64,000 nucleotides of DNA from Candidatus Spongiisociaceae bacterium (GCA_965243165.1 OZ251535.1:1217572-1281571); one strand, 5' to 3'. Counted from the stretch's first letter, positions 43,240-49,930 are shown. Made by a program: numbers and translations. The notes: generated by a model from the letters alone, not told the origin.

Positions 43240-44514
43240 ATGCGGCGCAGGTTCTTGTGGACCCAGTTCTTTCTCGATGCGGCCGCCTTGTCGGCGTCGG
43301 TCGGCTTGGCGTCCGCGGTCAACTTCGGCACCCCGTTTCCGTGGCGGTTCGAGCCGCAGGTGCTGCCGCTGTTGGCCATCATGTTCGGAAGCCTCGCCCT
43401 GGCCGAGTGGACAGGCGCCCGGCTGTCGGCGGGAGGCGCCCCCCGCCCCAGCTACGGGCGGGCGGTGGCGGTGGTCCTGATGACCTTGGGAACCACCTCG
43501 CTGGCGCTGACGGCCAGCAGGGTCTACTTCTCGCGTTCGCTGATCGGATGGTCGATGATCCTGTTCCTGGCGGGGGCGCTGGCGCATCGGGCGGTGCGCA
43601 GGCGGCGGCCCTGGGTGGAGCCGATGGTGCTGGTTACCGAGGAGAAGGGTCTGGTGGACGACTTGCGCAACGCCCCCCACGCCGATGTGGTCTCGGTGAT
43701 GGATCCTTCGACCGAGGGCCGCATCGAGCCGCTGGGGGAGGGGGTGGTGCTGGGCGTCGACCTGAAGTCGGTGCTGTCCGACCGGATGGCGCAGTACGTC
43801 TCGTCATGCACGCTGGCCGGTTACGACGTGCGGCCCATGTCCGAGGTCTACGAGATGCACACCGGGCGGATGCCGGTGGTGTCCTTGGCGGAAGGGTGGG
43901 AGCTGTCGGCCCCCGTGCTGCGCACCGCCCCCTATCTGCCCGGCAAGCGGCTGTTCGACGCGGCGGCGGTGCTGGTGACCGCGCCCCTGACCCTGCTGCT
44001 GACGGCGGCGCTGGCGGCGGTGATTCGGCTCAGCTCGCCGGGGCCGGTCATCTTCCGCCAGATCCGGGTGGGCCGGGGAGGGGAGGTCTTCACCCAGTAC
44101 AAGTTCCGGTCCATGCGGGAGGGGTCGGAGCGGCAGGGCCCGTCCTTCACCCGGGAGCGGGACGAGCGGGTGGTGCCGTTCGGACGGCTGATGCGGCGCT
44201 TCCGCCTCGACGAACTCCCGCAGCTGTGGAACGTGCTGAAAGGCGACCTGAGCCTGGTGGGCCCCCGCCCCGAGCAGGTGGACTTCGTGCGCCGCTTCGA
44301 CCGCCGGATCCCCTTCTACCCGAACCGCCACCTGATCCGCCCCGGCATCACGGGCTGGGCGCAGGTCAACTACGGATACGCCGACGGCGACGCCGACACC
44401 ATCGAGAAGCTCACCTACGACCTCTACTACCTCAAGCACATGAGCCCCTGGCTCGACCTGGAGATACTCGGGCGGAGCTGCTGGACCGTGCTCAGCGGTT
44501 TCGGCGCCCGCTAG
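43240..44514 (+). CDS. Polyprenyl-phosphate glycosyl-1-phosphate transferase (bacterial sugar transferase, WbaP/CpsE-like initiating enzyme)
   Basis: N-terminal TM helices, then a C-terminal Bac_transf domain (PGITGWAQVNYGY, KLTYDLYYLKHMSPWLDLEIL). Confidence 0.8.
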   Translation: MRRRFLWTQFFLDAAALSASVGLASAVNFGTPFPWRFEPQVLPLLAIMFGSLALAEWTGARLSAGGAPRPSYGRAVAVVLMTLGTTSLALTASRVYFSRSLIGWSMILFLAGALAHRAVRRRRPWVEPMVLVTEEKGLVDDLRNAPHADVVSVMDPSTEGRIEPLGEGVVLGVDLKSVLSDRMAQYVSSCTLAGYDVRPMSEVYEMHTGRMPVVSLAEGWELSAPVLRTAPYLPGKRLFDAAAVLVTAPLTLLLTAALAAVIRLSSPGPVIFRQIRVGRGGEVFTQYKFRSMREGSERQGPSFTRERDERVVPFGRLMRRFRLDELPQLWNVLKGDLSLVGPRPEQVDFVRRFDRRIPFYPNRHLIRPGITGWAQVNYGYADGDADTIEKLTYDLYYLKHMSPWLDLEILGRSCWTVLSGFGAR

Positions 44515-44815
44515 GTGTACTTCCCATGGACGTTGTTGACAGTTGGGCGGCGGGGGCATGAGCCGCACCCCGCCTGCTCTCACTGCTCCGCTGCCTCGGG
44601 GCGGCCTTCCCCCGGCGCGCCTCGAATGTGAGGTTACAGCGAACGGATATGTCACAGCCGGGGTGTACTCTCATAGTATGATACGAACATGGGTTCGGAC
44701 CAGCAGCACCCACAGGCAATACTCGGAAGATGAATCGCCTGCTGAAAATGGTTTGCCGGGGTGCCTTGTAAGCAGGTCGCGGCAGGCGCTCGGAGGATGA
44801 AGGAGGCGGCGAGCT

Positions 44816-45550
44816 GTGACGAACGACGCCGGGCTCTTTGAGCCGACAGAACTAATCTCCGCACGCAGAAGGCGGGGTTCGCCCAACGGCTTGCCCACGA
44901 ACGACCTGGTTCTGAGCGTTTTCACAGAAGGGAACGACCGCGCCTTCCCGCAGATACTCGGTCTCTACGTCGAGCCGGGGAGCGTCGTGGCGGATGTCAC
45001 CTACGGCAAGGGCGTGTTCTGGCGCCGCGTTCCTCCGGGCAGTTACGACCTGCGGGCTACGGACATTCAGGACGGCGTCGACTGCCGGGATCTGCCCTAC
45101 CGAGACGGTGAGATCGACTGCGTGGTGCTGGATCCGCCTTACATGCACTCTCCGGGCGGCACCGCCCATCAGACCCATACGCCCTTCGAGGACTACTACC
45201 GGAACAACGGTTCGGGCAACCGGACCAAGAGCAAATACCACGAGGCGGTGCTCGAGCTGTACCGGGATGCCGGCAAAGAGGCTCACCGAGTTCTCCGCGA
45301 GCGCGGGGTTCTCATCGTGAAGTGTCAGGATGAAGTGTGCTCGAACCGGCAGCGCTTCACACACGTGGAGATCATGTCGGACTACGAGGACATGGGGTTC
45401 ACTGCAGAGGACCTTTTCGTGGTCGTAAGGAACAACCGCCCCGGCGTCAGCCGCGCGGTGCGGCAGGTCCACGCCCGCAAGAACCACTCCTACTTTCTCG
45501 TCTTCTGGAAGCGGGGGGATCACGGAACAGTTTGGAAACCCCCGCTATGA
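44816..45550 (+). CDS. Small N6A/N4C DNA methyltransferase (type II RM MTase), low-GC gene
   Basis: Motif I-like VADVTYGKGVFW and motif IV VVLDPPY. 244 aa. GTG start. The region has clearly lower GC. Confidence 0.7.
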   Translation: MTNDAGLFEPTELISARRRRGSPNGLPTNDLVLSVFTEGNDRAFPQILGLYVEPGSVVADVTYGKGVFWRRVPPGSYDLRATDIQDGVDCRDLPYRDGEIDCVVLDPPYMHSPGGTAHQTHTPFEDYYRNNGSGNRTKSKYHEAVLELYRDAGKEAHRVLRERGVLIVKCQDEVCSNRQRFTHVEIMSDYEDMGFTAEDLFVVVRNNRPGVSRAVRQVHARKNHSYFLVFWKRGDHGTVWKPPL

Positions 45551-46044
45551 ACCCCATTCAGTTGCTCATTGAAGTCATCAGTGATCATTCACAAGCGTCG
45601 AAGTGGACTGGTGCCCCGCTGGAGAGCTTTCGCTCTGTAGCCAATACTAACCGAGGCCAGATAGGTGAGGGTTTTATTCGTCGATATCTGGCCGCTAATG
45701 GAATTACCGTAGGAAATGGTTCACGTGTCACCCTGACCGATCTTATGATCTCGGGTCAAAGATTCGAAGTAAAGACAGCGTCGGAAGATGTAAACGGGAG
45801 CTTTCAGTTCAATCACGTTCGACTTGACCGCCAGTATGATTATCTACTATGTTTAGGTATCGCCCCATCAAGCATATGGTTCGGTATTTGGCGCAAGGGA
45901 GTGGTGGCCGAAGGCGGCGCGGGGAGTCTGGTACGGATGGCGGAAGGACAGAGCGTCACGTTCAAGCTGACTAAGAAGCAGGACGGTCTACAACCTATTG
46001 AGCAATTACCTGACTTTATTGAGAGTATTATCAAGGCCCGTTAG
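45547..46044 (+). CDS. Putative type II restriction endonuclease (PD-(D/E)xK)
   Basis: 166 aa. ...TLTDLMISGQRFEVKTAS fits a D-x(n)-E-V-K catalytic core. Its start overlaps the MTase stop (ATGA). Low GC. Confidence 0.5.
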   Translation: MNPIQLLIEVISDHSQASKWTGAPLESFRSVANTNRGQIGEGFIRRYLAANGITVGNGSRVTLTDLMISGQRFEVKTASEDVNGSFQFNHVRLDRQYDYLLCLGIAPSSIWFGIWRKGVVAEGGAGSLVRMAEGQSVTFKLTKKQDGLQPIEQLPDFIESIIKAR

Positions 46045-48879: not shown

Positions 48880-49058
48880 CTGCTCGGTTTCACATTCGAT
48901 GGAGTCAGTATGGCATCATAGAGCATCGAAACAGTATGCAGATGCACTCCCCCAGCCGTACAGCACCGACCGGAGTCCGCGCGGTCAACCGCGCGATGCG
49001 GCGGGCGCCTGCCCGCAAGAACAACTTCTGCTTCCCCGTCTTCTGGAGGAGGAATGAC

Positions 49059-49787
49059 TCAGACGGGCTGCTGTTCCGCCTTGGGCTGATCTTTGCACCT
49101 TCTCCTGTGATACCATTCTGATAGGCCGATAACCAACAGGATGACAGGCACAGCAACCGTGTTATACGGCGCTAAAATTAATAAGACTAGAGGGCTGTCG
49201 TCTGAATGGATTATTACCCAAAGCACGACAAATAACCCAGAACAGATGATTGAGCTTATAAGCGTACCTCGGATGCGGAATCGGGCCGTTGCTAATAACA
49301 GCATAGACGGCCAGAAGATGATAGCAGTGAATGCAAAATAGTTAGCTATTCTTGACCAGTTCGTATTACTATTTGTATAATCTATCCCAAAAACATATAG
49401 AGCAGTGATGTATGGAATAATCAGCGGAATCGCCAGATATATAATAGCTCTTTGCAGATATCTTAGATTGGATGTTCGCTCGTTATATCCGGGGATCACC
49501 GCGTCTTTAGATGGAATGATCATCCAGCCTATCAGGTACAAAACTACTCCCCAGCCAACCGGAAGCTGCAAATACTCAAAAGGCCCTATTGAGAAGAAAA
49601 TGATCAGCAATGCCAGCCAGTGGTCAAACCACTCATAGCTCAGCATGCTATTAAGAGGAAGGGCCAACAGGATGAACAATGACCTTACCGTCCACACCGG
49701 AAGGCGGAGGCGGCGGGACAGGCCTGCTGACACCCCGGCTAGCCAGCGGCCTTCATGCGGCCGGGAGAGTTGCGGGTTCCCGTCCAT
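49059..49787 (-). CDS. PspC-domain membrane protein, AT-rich (foreign-looking) gene
   Basis: N-terminal PspC domain (GRWLAGVSAGLSRRLRLPVWTVRSLFILL), then several TM helices. Local GC is far below the genome background. Confidence 0.65.
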   Translation of the reverse strand: MDGNPQLSRPHEGRWLAGVSAGLSRRLRLPVWTVRSLFILLALPLNSMLSYEWFDHWLALLIIFFSIGPFEYLQLPVGWGVVLYLIGWMIIPSKDAVIPGYNERTSNLRYLQRAIIYLAIPLIIPYITALYVFGIDYTNSNTNWSRIANYFAFTAIIFWPSMLLLATARFRIRGTLISSIICSGLFVVLWVIIHSDDSPLVLLILAPYNTVAVPVILLVIGLSEWYHRRRCKDQPKAEQQPV

Positions 49788-49930
49788 TGGGCCACTCTAG
49801 CGGGTAGAACAACCCTAGATGGGTAGCTCCAAGGTTACCCTGACAAAACCTCGGTTGATGATGGTTTGCATAGTTCGACAGGCTCATCTTGCTGGAGGTT
49901 GAGGGTGATAAACCGAGCGACTTGGCCTGC

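What the first reader, a model, noticed from the sequence alone, without database searches (positions are those of the whole stretch)
44514..49900. Low-GC defense islet: ATGA-coupled type II RM pair, DUF1156 methylase and PspC-domain membrane protein
GC content drops sharply relative to the flanks. The small MTase (DPPY) and a 166 aa PD-D/ExK protein overlap by ATGA, the classic type II RM layout. A convergent 913 aa DUF1156 MTase-like gene is present without the DUF499/DUF3780 partners it is usually reported with, which would leave it an orphan. An AT-rich PspC-domain membrane gene follows. Together this looks like recently acquired DNA, inserted between the glycopolymer locus and the downstream membrane protein gene and bordered by repeat copy B.
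Basis: partly seen in the sequence, partly recalled or inferred. Interest (0 to 1): 0.6.

Follow-up and report, generated by a model that had tools for sequence, protein, structure and literature searches.

The report
Mosaic restriction-modification islet with orphan methylase
This stretch holds an ordinary two-gene restriction-modification cassette found in hundreds of bacterial species, a stranded and probably crippled methylase left over from a larger anti-phage system, and a rare membrane-protein gene; each part comes and goes separately among close relatives, so it is not one recent insertion.

Summary
They do not form one low-GC block. The methylase gene is 0.62 GC, the nuclease gene 0.49 and the PspC-like gene 0.48. 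The DUF1156 gene fills half the interval and is 0.69 GC, the same as the genome.

The 244-aa methylase and 165-aa nuclease form a genuine type II restriction-modification cassette. The methylase has a DPPY motif and is 51% identical to a methylase on Shigella plasmid pSB13. The nuclease has a PD-(D/E)XK fold with invariant E41, D65, E74 and K76. The two genes sit back-to-back in 79 of 80 species genomes from many phyla.

The DUF1156 protein is a full-length HmaB, the methylase of the Hma / DUF499-centred BREX-related system. No HmaA, HmaC or DUF3780 occurs in the 64 kb. Its catalytic motif reads SPPCY, against DPPYY in 106 of 125 relatives. The gene is still under purifying selection (dN/dS 0.32-0.40).

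Ten related metagenome contigs carry the methylase, nuclease and hmaB genes at this same locus. The nuclease gene, an extra methylase-HNH gene and a 1.2-kb PspC segment are each present or absent independently.

This is a recombining defence hot spot made of known parts. Interest is low to moderate.

The parts
44515..44815 (+). Upstream non-coding region of the restriction-modification operon. It has an AAGGAGG ribosome-binding site about 12 nt before the GTG start.
   Evidence: Sequence. Positions 44591-44698 are 86% identical to the region upstream of the methylase-HNH gene in L001. Positions 44701-44789 are missing in L007 and L090.
44816..45550 (+). Type II amino-methyltransferase, 244 aa. 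Motif I (DVTYGKG) precedes motif IV (DPPY), which is the gamma-type order. It belongs to the M.NruI/M.Sbo13I-like family.
   Evidence: Pfam PF01555 at E 5.5e-9. 51% identity over 231 aa to the methylase of Shigella boydii plasmid pSB13. Family description in PMC2890505. dN/dS 0.08-0.13. A homologue lies directly upstream of the nuclease homologue in 79 of 80 genomes.
45547..46044 (+). Type II restriction endonuclease candidate, 165 aa, PD-(D/E)XK fold. It is translationally coupled to the methylase by an ATGA overlap. GC is 0.49.
   Evidence: PADLOC REase_II at E 7.5e-14. More than 1100 homologues; E41, D65, E74 and K76 are invariant. AlphaFold2 model pLDDT 89. Top Foldseek PDB hits are Hjc, I-Ssp6803I, NhoI, SPARDA nuclease, DpnI and EcoRV. 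dN/dS 0.09-0.18. Absent in L002 and L003; a 27-codon relic remains in L001.
46045..46137 (.). AT-rich spacer (GC 0.41) between the convergent nuclease and hmaB genes.
   Evidence: Its nuclease-proximal part is missing together with the nuclease gene in L002. No terminator-like site was found.
46138..48867 (-). hmaB: orphan DUF1156 methylase homologue of the Hma / DUF499-centred BREX-related system, 909 aa from the ATG at 48867. Motif I (DPFCGGGT) is intact. Motif IV is degenerate (SPPCY).
   Evidence: PADLOC HmaB at E 1.2e-257, full length. Pfam DUF1156. SPPCY against DPPYY in 106 of 125 homologues. 28-34 deviations at 262 family-conserved columns, against a median of 4. dN/dS 0.32-0.40. Only in-frame indels in 7 orthologues. 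GC 0.688.
48868..48967 (-). Conserved 5' leader and promoter region of hmaB. Every hmaB contig shares it, and homology between contexts breaks just beyond it.
   Evidence: Sequence comparison of the window, L001, L002, L003, L007, L008 and L009.
48977..49052 (+). Relic of the 3' end of a second methylase of the same family. It forms a direct repeat of 45439-45514 at 78% identity.
   Evidence: the repeat finder D16. tblastn and blastp match to residues 212-237 of the methylase. Also present in L001, L090 and L093.
49059..49787 (-). PspC-domain multi-pass membrane protein, 242 aa, GC 0.48, GC3 0.54. It is a rare, population-variable accessory gene.
   Evidence: PF04024 at 37.6 bits. Only 5 homologues among 5.8 billion proteins. 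Present in L090, L093, L094 and L095; absent in L007-L009. No phage or plasmid homologue.
48968..50171 (.). Strain-variable 1204-bp segment holding the methylase relic, the PspC gene and repeat B. An unrelated 125-bp sequence takes its place in L007, L008 and L009.
   Evidence: blastn break points and junction sequences. No target-site duplication was seen.
49926..50019 (+). 'Repeat copy B': one copy of a dispersed intergenic repeat of about 95 nt. Other copies lie at 27908-28002 and 55421-55514.
   Evidence: Folding energy is no better than shuffled sequence (z from -0.4 to +1.0). No Rfam family matched.

Best explanation
The interval is a mosaic defence locus built from three unrelated modules that recombine independently within a bacterial population. 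It is not one acquired island.

(1) Restriction-modification cassette. The 244-aa methylase and 165-aa nuclease form a compact, horizontally spread type II cassette. The methylase is an M.NruI/M.Sbo13I-like amino-methyltransferase with a DPPY motif. It marks a short target site on host DNA. The PD-(D/E)XK nuclease has catalytic E41, D65, E74 and K76. It is translated by coupling to the methylase through the ATGA overlap and cuts DNA that lacks the mark. Shown: the folds, the motifs, and co-conservation of the pair. Inferred: the enzyme activities and the target site.

(2) hmaB. This is the methylase component of an Hma / DUF499-centred BREX-related system that has lost its helicase-nuclease (HmaA) and ATPase (HmaC) partners, at least locally. 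In this lineage the catalytic (D/N)PP(Y/F) motif has become SPPCY, or APPYY in the L001 orthologue. Many other family-invariant residues have also changed, so it is probably a weak or inactive methylase. The reading frame is nevertheless kept intact under purifying selection. This suggests a retained non-catalytic or altered role such as DNA binding. That role is inferred, not shown.

(3) PspC-like gene. A 1.2-kb segment carrying a rare low-GC PspC-domain membrane protein is present or absent among strains. I take it to be an accessory envelope protein with no demonstrated link to the other two modules.

hmaB is the constant anchor of the locus. The sequences on both sides of it are a hot spot where restriction-modification genes are gained, lost and swapped by recombination.
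For: Restriction-modification pair:
- Motifs and ATGA overlap. PADLOC REase_II at E 7.5e-14.
- Invariant E41, D65, E74 and K76 in 28 diverse homologues.
- AlphaFold2 pLDDT 89, and the leading PDB fold matches (the top 27 ranks) are PD-(D/E)XK nucleases or nuclease-like folds.
- A methylase homologue abuts the nuclease homologue on the same strand in 79 of 80 species genomes; 360 genomes were hit, across many phyla.
- The methylase is 51% identical to the pSB13 methylase. Family description in PMC2890505.
- dN/dS is 0.08-0.18.

hmaB:
- PADLOC HmaB at E 1e-257. Family context from PMC12839542 and PMC11232893.
- A 56%-identical relative sits next to an HmaC at E 2e-291, so the partnership is normal for the family.
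- No partners in the window.
- SPPCY or APPYY only in this clade. 28-34 deviations against a median of 4.
- dN/dS 0.32-0.40 and only in-frame indels.

Mosaic structure:
- L007, L008, L009, L090 and L093 are syntenic.
- The nuclease gene is absent in L002 and L003 and is a relic in L001, where a methylase-HNH gene precedes it.
- Nuclease dS is 0.90 and methylase dS 0.28, against 0.07-0.09 in flanking genes.
- All four combinations of restriction-modification allele and PspC presence exist: window, L009, L007 and L090.
- The cassette is below flank GC in 73 of 78 genomes.
Against: - No enzyme activity, methylation motif or phage-resistance phenotype was or could be measured.
- The recognition site is unknown. 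TCGCGA, the NruI/Sbo13I site, is not clearly depleted: 3 observed against 4.9-9.2 expected under higher-order Markov models.
- HmaA and HmaC could be encoded elsewhere in the roughly 3.19-Mb genome, which I could not retrieve.
- SPP(Y/F) motifs occur in active N4-cytosine methylases, so the motif change could mean altered chemistry and not loss of activity.
- hmaB dN/dS of 0.3-0.4 is only moderately constrained.
- No relative with an empty site was found, so the order of gains and losses is not resolved.
- The role of the PspC-like protein is essentially unknown.
Confidence: 0.72

Rival explanations
1. Single recent island. The whole 44514-49900 interval is one block of recently acquired foreign DNA, inserted between the glycopolymer locus and the membrane-protein gene.
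For: Two low-GC patches, the nuclease gene at 0.49 and the PspC gene at 0.48. The restriction-modification cassette is clearly horizontally mobile across phyla. No relative with an empty site was found that would rule out an older single insertion.
Against: hmaB makes up half the interval and has native GC (0.688) and GC3 (0.85). At least five related contigs at 92-97% identity have the same gene order at the same locus. The modules vary independently and all four allele combinations exist. No integrase, tRNA gene or target-site duplication was found.
Confidence: 0.08
2. hmaB is an active solitary DNA methyltransferase. It would act as an epigenetic regulator or a protective orphan methylase, and the SPPCY motif would reflect a change of target chemistry (for example towards N4-cytosine) and not loss of activity.
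For: Motif I (DPFCGGGT) is intact. The full-length protein is maintained with dN/dS below 1 and only in-frame indels. SPPY and SPPF are accepted motif IV variants in beta-group amino-methylases (PMC2890505). At least one other HmaB homologue, L004, is also orphan among housekeeping genes.
Against: The aromatic residue of motif IV is replaced by Cys. The sister orthologue has APPYY, with no polar catalytic residue at all. There are 28-34 substitutions at otherwise invariant family positions, including W179R, G629P, F612S and D533G. HmaB of Halomonas showed no detectable protective methylation effect in the single test reported (PMC11232893).
Confidence: 0.18
3. hmaB still works within a complete Hma / BREX-related system whose helicase-nuclease and DUF499 ATPase genes are encoded elsewhere in the genome.
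For: Only 64 kb of a roughly 3.19-Mb genome was visible. Other defence genes can sit between hma genes, as in Halomonas, where hmaC is about 7 kb from hmaB (PMC11232893).
Against: There are no partners within 17 kb on one side and 46 kb on the other. Related contigs covering up to 46 kb show none either. The degenerate catalytic motif and excess substitutions fit release from the system's constraints.
Confidence: 0.1
4. hmaB is a functionless relic on its way to becoming a pseudogene. The reading frame stays open only because stop codons are rare in 69%-GC DNA.
For: dN/dS is the highest in the neighbourhood. First and second codon positions together vary as much as third positions: 119+105 against 215 sites. 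The catalytic motif is lost.
Against: Seven orthologues diverged up to dS 0.20 have no frameshift, only one 6-nt and one 9-nt in-frame indel, and conserved start and stop positions over 2.7 kb. dN/dS is clearly below 1 in every pair. Its 100-nt upstream leader is conserved in every context.
Confidence: 0.15

Closest known systems
NruI / Sbo13I type II restriction-modification systems (M.NruI/M.Sbo13I subgroup of gamma-class amino-methyltransferases; PMC2890505)
   Same: The 244-aa methylase is 51% identical over 231 aa to the methylase of S. boydii plasmid pSB13. M.NruI and M.Sbo13I are themselves 49% identical to each other. It shares the small size, the motif I-before-IV order and DPPY in place of NPPY. 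Each system pairs the methylase with a small nuclease carrying a D...EVK motif.
   Different: The nuclease here is a different sequence family; profile comparison with the pSB13 nuclease gave probability 0.1%. The genes are tandem and overlapping, not convergent, and there is no controller (C) gene. The recognition site is unknown. That the pSB13 methylase is M.Sbo13I is my inference from the plasmid's source and its C-R/M layout, not from an accession match.
Hma system (HmaA helicase-nuclease, HmaB methylase, HmaC DUF499 ATPase; Payne 2021), also called DUF499-centred BREX-related (BR) systems type 1 and 2 (PMC12839542, PMC11232893)
   Same: The 909-aa protein matches the HmaB profile end to end (E 1e-257). 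It has the DUF1156 N-terminal domain that defines BR methylases.
   Different: No HmaA, HmaC or DUF3780 within 64 kb. Motif IV is SPPCY instead of DPPYY, with an excess of substitutions at invariant positions. The gene is consistently next to type II restriction-modification genes instead.
Orphan (solitary) DNA methyltransferases left after loss of a restriction partner
   Same: A methylase-family gene persists without the effector genes of its system. L002 and L003 also show the 244-aa methylase persisting without its nuclease.
   Different: Classical orphans such as Dam and CcrM keep an intact catalytic motif and act in regulation. Here the catalytic motif itself is degenerate.
PspC / phage-shock protein C family (PF04024)
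   Same: The N-terminal PspC domain is recognised above the Pfam threshold.
   Different: No pspA or pspB neighbours. It scores far below the TIGR02978 PspC equivalog cut-off (21 bits against 104). It has several extra transmembrane segments, a domain split by an insertion, only 5 detectable homologues, and GC 20 points below the genome.

Membership tests
Type II restriction-modification system (separate M and R genes) | Methyltransferase with an AdoMet-binding motif I and catalytic motif IV (D/N/S)PP(Y/F) | tested here: met
   DVTYGKG and DPPY in the 244-aa ORF. PF01555 at E 5.5e-9. 51% identity to the pSB13 methylase.
Type II restriction-modification system (separate M and R genes) | Endonuclease with a nuclease fold and conserved catalytic residues | tested here: met
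   E41, D65, E74 and K76 invariant in 28 homologues. AlphaFold2 pLDDT 89. The best Foldseek PDB matches are PD-(D/E)XK enzymes, TM 0.4-0.55. PADLOC REase_II at E 7.5e-14.
Type II restriction-modification system (separate M and R genes) | M and R genes adjacent and co-inherited across hosts | tested here: met
   79 of 80 species genomes have the methylase homologue abutting the nuclease homologue on the same strand. The one exception is cut by a contig end.
Type II restriction-modification system (separate M and R genes) | Site-specific cleavage that is blocked by the cognate methylation | not testable with these tools
   Needs biochemistry or methylome data. TCGCGA depletion was inconclusive.
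M.NruI/M.Sbo13I gamma-subgroup methylases | Motif order X-I-II-III-IV...TRD, with DPPY in place of NPPY | tested here: met
   Motif I at about residue 60 precedes DPPY at about residue 106. The alignment with the pSB13 methylase is continuous over residues 9-232. Definition from PMC2890505.
M.NruI/M.Sbo13I gamma-subgroup methylases | Extra motifs IVa and Xa; recognition of TCGCGA | not tested
   Motifs IVa and Xa were not mapped individually. Specificity cannot be read from the sequence.
Hma / DUF499-centred BREX-related system | BR-type methylase with an N-terminal DUF1156 domain (HmaB) | tested here: met
   PADLOC HmaB at E 1.2e-257 covering residues 6-908. PF06634 at E 6.8e-17.
Hma / DUF499-centred BREX-related system | DUF499 AAA+ ATPase (HmaC) in the locus | tested here: not met
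   No Pfam DUF499 or PADLOC HmaC hit in any large ORF of the 64-kb window. tblastn with a verified HmaC found nothing. The rest of the genome was not available.
Hma / DUF499-centred BREX-related system | Helicase-nuclease effector (HmaA) and, for type 2, DUF3780 | tested here: not met
   No such hit in the window or in syntenic contigs L007, L009 and L093.
Hma / DUF499-centred BREX-related system | Intact catalytic motif IV (DPPYY in the family) | tested here: not met
   SPPCY in the window clade and APPYY in L001, against DPPYY in 106 of 125 homologues.
Integrated genomic island / mobile element | Integrase or recombinase, tRNA or other attachment site, flanking direct repeats or target-site duplication | tested here: not met
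   No tRNA gene. No integrase among the annotated ORFs. The HTH_17 excisionase-like gene at 51498-51971 is conserved in all relatives, with or without the variable parts. No duplication at the junctions of the 1.2-kb segment.
Psp (phage-shock) envelope stress system | PspC domain together with PspA/PspB partners | tested here: inconclusive
   The PspC domain is present. It fails the PspC equivalog cut-off, and no pspA or pspB was seen among the neighbours.

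The most novel reading that the evidence does not exclude
In this lineage the Hma/BREX-related methylase has become a catalytically dead 'pseudo-methyltransferase'. Selection keeps it as a stand-alone protein, for example as a DNA-binding or sensing factor. Its gene anchors a recombination hot spot where type II restriction-modification cassettes and other accessory genes are exchanged. This would be a repurposed component of a defence system, not simply a relic.
Probability: 0.15. 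Interest if true: 0.55.

Novelty: new member of a known kind. Interest (0 to 1): 0.3.

Why it matters
Practically, the result corrects the annotation in three ways. The locus is not one fresh island. The unannotated 165-aa 'hypothetical protein' family has more than 1100 members, no Pfam or NCBIfam model, and hits in 360 species genomes, many with MAG titles I recall as sponge-associated. It can be named the nuclease partner of an M.NruI/M.Sbo13I-like methylase. The DUF1156 gene should be labelled an orphan HmaB with a degenerate active site.

More broadly, the ten related contigs give a clean small example of how defence loci evolve by independent module swapping within a population. They also show a defence-system methylase outliving its partners while losing its catalytic motif. 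If that protein has a retained function, it would add to the list of repurposed defence components. That remains speculative.

Tried and rejected
- Retrieving the source genome: the look-up of encoding contigs with the window's HmaB (913 and 909 aa) found no record. The rest of the genome could therefore not be searched for HmaA or HmaC.
- Rfam and tRNA scans of the whole window found nothing.
- Sequence search of PDB with the nuclease and the methylase gave no meaningful hits. Only the fold search was informative.
- The nuclease against plasmids, and PspC against phages and plasmids, gave no match.
- Profile comparison of the nuclease family with the pSB13 (Sbo13I-like) nuclease found no relationship. 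I dropped the idea that this is an NruI isoschizomer by nuclease homology.
- Palindrome depletion to guess the target site: TCGCGA looks depleted only under a first-order model, because CGCG is depleted genome-wide. The test was inconclusive.
- Repeat B as a structured RNA or element boundary: folding is no better than shuffled sequence and the repeat is not at a break point.
- The promoter and terminator scan gave nothing usable.
- A metagenome scan with the 396-aa membrane protein, looking for an empty-site relative, returned only one 37%-identical hit on a 2.6-kb contig.
- I considered and rejected a functional link between PspC and hmaB. Each occurs without the other: L095 has PspC without hmaB, and L007-L009 have hmaB without PspC.

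Full report
**1. What is in the interval**

The window is 69.1% GC. Its genes for an SLH-domain protein, SpoIID and glycine reductase point to a high-GC Gram-positive-type bacterium. Between the sugar-transferase gene (43240-44514) and a 396-aa membrane-protein gene (50197-51387) there are four genes:
- a 244-aa methylase at 44816-45550 (+);
- a 165-aa ORF at 45547-46044 (+);
- a DUF1156 protein at 46138-48867/48879 (-);
- a 242-aa PspC-domain protein at 49059-49787 (-).

The ATGA overlap between the first two is there.

GC differs sharply by gene: 0.623, 0.494, 0.688 and 0.481. GC3 is 0.79, 0.50, 0.85 and 0.54, against 0.94 for the neighbouring sugar transferase. The 'low-GC islet' is therefore two short low-GC genes flanking a native-looking 2.7-kb gene.

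**2. The restriction-modification pair is genuine and widespread**

The methylase:
- It has motif I (DVTYGKG) before motif IV (DPPY).
- It is 51% identical over 231 residues to the methylase of Shigella boydii plasmid pSB13.
- The gene layout of pSB13 (controller plus nuclease in one direction, methylase in the other) fits the published Sbo13I system. That paper defines the M.NruI/M.Sbo13I subgroup of gamma-class amino-methylases by exactly these features (PMC2890505).

The 165-aa protein:
- It has no Pfam or NCBIfam hit but matches two PADLOC REase_II profiles, the better at E 7.5e-14.
- It has more than 1100 homologues at 55-98% identity, every named one labelled 'hypothetical'.
- E41, D65, E74 and K76 are invariant, giving the E...D...ExK signature.
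- An AlphaFold2 model built from that alignment has mean pLDDT 89.
- Its best PDB fold matches are all PD-(D/E)XK nucleases: Hjc, I-Ssp6803I, NhoI, the SPARDA nuclease, DpnI and EcoRV. TM-scores are 0.4-0.55.

Co-occurrence of the pair:
- A scan of species-representative genomes found 360 carrying the nuclease. They include Dehalococcoidia, Acidobacteriota, Gammaproteobacteria, Poribacteria, Nitrospirales and others. From memory, many of the record titles are sponge-associated MAGs; this is not verified.
- In 79 of the 80 loci kept, a homologue of the 244-aa methylase (60-83% identity) lies immediately upstream on the same strand. The exception is cut by a contig end.
- None of these loci has an HmaB or the PspC-like gene within 6 kb.
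- Both genes are under strong purifying selection, dN/dS 0.08-0.18.
- The cassette is below flank GC in 73 of 78 genomes, by 6 points on average. The window, at 20 points below, is at the extreme.

The nuclease family is not detectably related to the pSB13 nuclease. The target site remains unknown, and TCGCGA depletion is inconclusive.

**3. The DUF1156 protein is an orphan HmaB with a degenerate active site**

It matches the PADLOC HmaB profile end to end at E 1.2e-257. HmaB is the methylase of the Hma system. A 2026 comparative study re-describes that system as the DUF499-centred BREX-related system, whose methylases are defined by the DUF1156 N-terminal domain. The same study reports DUF3780 in type 2 systems (PMC12839542 and PMC11232893).

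Evidence that it is orphan here:
- A 56%-identical relative (L006) sits directly upstream of an HmaC at E 2e-291, so the partnership is normal for the family.
- No large ORF of the window hits DUF499, DUF3780, HmaA or HmaC.
- tblastn with HmaC finds no remnant.
- Syntenic contigs of up to 46 kb show none either.
- The remaining ~3.1 Mb of the genome could not be examined.

Evidence that the active site is degenerate:
- The family's motif IV is DPPYY in 106 of 125 homologues.
- It reads SPPCY in the window and its six closest orthologues (at least 90% identical).
- It reads APPYY in the 86%-identical orthologue.
- Motif I is intact.
- Across 262 columns that are at least 95% conserved in 110 other HmaB proteins, this clade deviates at 28-34. 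The median elsewhere is 4 and the maximum 19. The changes include W179R, R464Q, D533G, F612S, G629P and E653Q.

Evidence that the gene is still constrained:
- Seven orthologues diverged up to dS 0.20 carry no stop and only two in-frame indels.
- dN/dS is 0.32-0.40.

I read this as a methylase released from its system, probably catalytically impaired, but still kept as a protein. Loss of activity is an inference from the established role of the (D/N/S)PP(Y/F) motif in amino-methylases. It has not been measured.

**4. Comparison with relatives: a mosaic, not an island**

Ten metagenome contigs from close relatives were recovered.

Conserved synteny:
- L007, L008, L009, L090 and L093 are 92-97% identical to the window.
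- They show the same order: EamA, HTH_17, membrane protein, hmaB, nuclease, methylase, sugar transferase, PepA.
- The gene caller missed the nuclease in L009 and L093. The L009 copy is intact and 98% identical. In L093 it is inferred only from the collinear blastn alignment.

What differs:

(a) The 1.2-kb segment.
- Window 48968-50171 (1204 bp) holds the methylase relic, the PspC gene and repeat B.
- It is present in L090, L093 and L094. An unrelated 125-bp sequence replaces it in L007-L009.
- There is no target-site duplication.

(b) The restriction-modification allele.
- Between the window and L007, dS is 0.90 for the nuclease and 0.28 for the methylase, but 0.07-0.09 for flanking genes.
- L090 has the L007-type allele together with the PspC segment. 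L009 has the window-type allele without it.
- All four combinations therefore exist, which implies recombination between sites 3 kb apart.

(c) Loss of the nuclease gene. In L002 and L003 it is cleanly absent. The methylase then ends 64 bp from hmaB and is preceded, with a 4-bp overlap, by a methylase-HNH fusion gene.

(d) A further rearrangement in L001.
- The same methylase-HNH gene is followed by a 43-codon relic. The relic joins a few codons that resemble the start of the 244-aa methylase to nuclease residues 13-39.
- An unrelated 314-aa methyltransferase-like gene comes next, and then hmaB.
- The region upstream of that methylase-HNH gene matches window 44591-44698.
- A paralogue of the methylase-HNH gene (50-55% identity) lies 25 kb away in the window, at 19681-21294.

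(e) The break point upstream of hmaB. All hmaB contigs share about 100 nt upstream of the start codon and diverge beyond it.

The 76-nt relic at 48977-49052 is a 78%-identical direct repeat of the methylase 3' end. It shows that a second cassette of the same family once abutted hmaB on that side.

No tRNA gene or integrase is present. The one recombination-related candidate, the HTH_17 excisionase-like gene at 51498-51971, is conserved in all relatives. I found no relative with an empty site, so the ultimate origin of the block is unresolved.

**5. The PspC-like gene**

- It passes the Pfam PspC threshold but fails the PspC equivalog model.
- It has only five detectable homologues among 5.8 billion proteins, all from the same set of metagenomes.
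- It has none in phage or plasmid collections.
- A 59%-identical copy (L095) sits next to the same membrane-protein gene without hmaB and is still 0.50 GC.
- Its low GC is therefore a lasting property of a rare, population-variable gene, not proof of very recent arrival. Its function is unknown. I treat it as an accessory envelope protein unrelated to the other modules.

**6. Verdict**

Everything here belongs to known kinds. The mildly unusual element is an orphan HmaB with a degenerate catalytic motif that selection still maintains.

Interest is 0.3. The most novel reading not excluded is a repurposed pseudo-methyltransferase anchoring a restriction-modification swap hot spot. I give it about 15% probability.

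Noticed in passing
window 19681-21294 (-): A 537-aa N6_N4 methylase fused to an HNH nuclease domain, with GC3 lower than its neighbours. Its 50-55% identical paralogue sits inside the islet, directly upstream of the 244-aa methylase, in relatives L001 and L002. The adjacent gene at 18456-19385 is a nucleotidyltransferase that hits PADLOC PDC-S09.
   Followed up: partly
window 9051-18436 (+): A cluster comprising a 957-aa protein with weak methylase-like PADLOC hits (no Pfam hit), NurA, a HerA-like ATPase with no Pfam hit, SbcD and SbcC. It is either an archaeal-type end-resection operon or a defence-like module.
   Followed up: no
window 27908-28002, 49926-50019, 55421-55514: A dispersed intergenic repeat of about 95 nt at 66-91% identity, each copy upstream of a + strand gene. 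A half copy lies at 54313-54344. There is no Rfam match, and folding is no better than shuffled sequence.
   Followed up: partly
window 53338-53460, 53784-53907, 54458-54488, 55432-55457: A second repeat family with terminal inverted ends (GAAGACGAGCGGATAGG...), resembling a miniature mobile element, in the 1.3-kb non-coding stretch after the EamA gene. Sequences resembling this stretch (window 53616-53751 and 54059-54168) flank hmaB in L003 and the PspC gene in L095. Parts of the stretch may therefore be recurrent recombination or insertion sequences.
   Followed up: no
window 54485-55033 (-): A low-GC gene built from three tandem 108-nt repeats, giving a coiled-coil-like repeat protein. The blastn alignment suggests it and its surroundings are missing from relative L009.
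   Followed up: no
window 52220-53173 and 56780-57681: Two EamA-family transporter genes about 76% identical at the nucleotide level, 4.5 kb apart: a local duplication.
   Followed up: no
whole window: The tetranucleotide CGCG is strongly under-represented: 375 observed against 756-901 expected. CTAG and GGGCCC are also low. This could reflect another restriction system or a mutational bias.
   Followed up: no
window 51498-51971 (+): An HTH_17 / excisionase-family DNA-binding gene with lower GC (0.58) and the lowest protein identity among the flanking genes (90%, dN/dS about 0.3). It is conserved in all relatives, with or without the variable parts.
   Followed up: partly
window 30051-37121 (+): The giant glycosyltransferase ORF (2356 aa as listed) contains an internal duplication of about 3 kb at 70-81% identity (31127-34423 against 34124-36777).
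   Followed up: no
L006 2851-16126: A distant genome carries two DUF1156 paralogues 4 kb apart. One is followed by HEPN_Swt1-DUF499 (HmaC). Both are preceded by HATPase_c_3 (MORC-like) genes, so this is not the plain three-gene Hma layout. In L005 an HmaB overlaps a 1379-aa P-loop protein with no Pfam hit.
   Followed up: no
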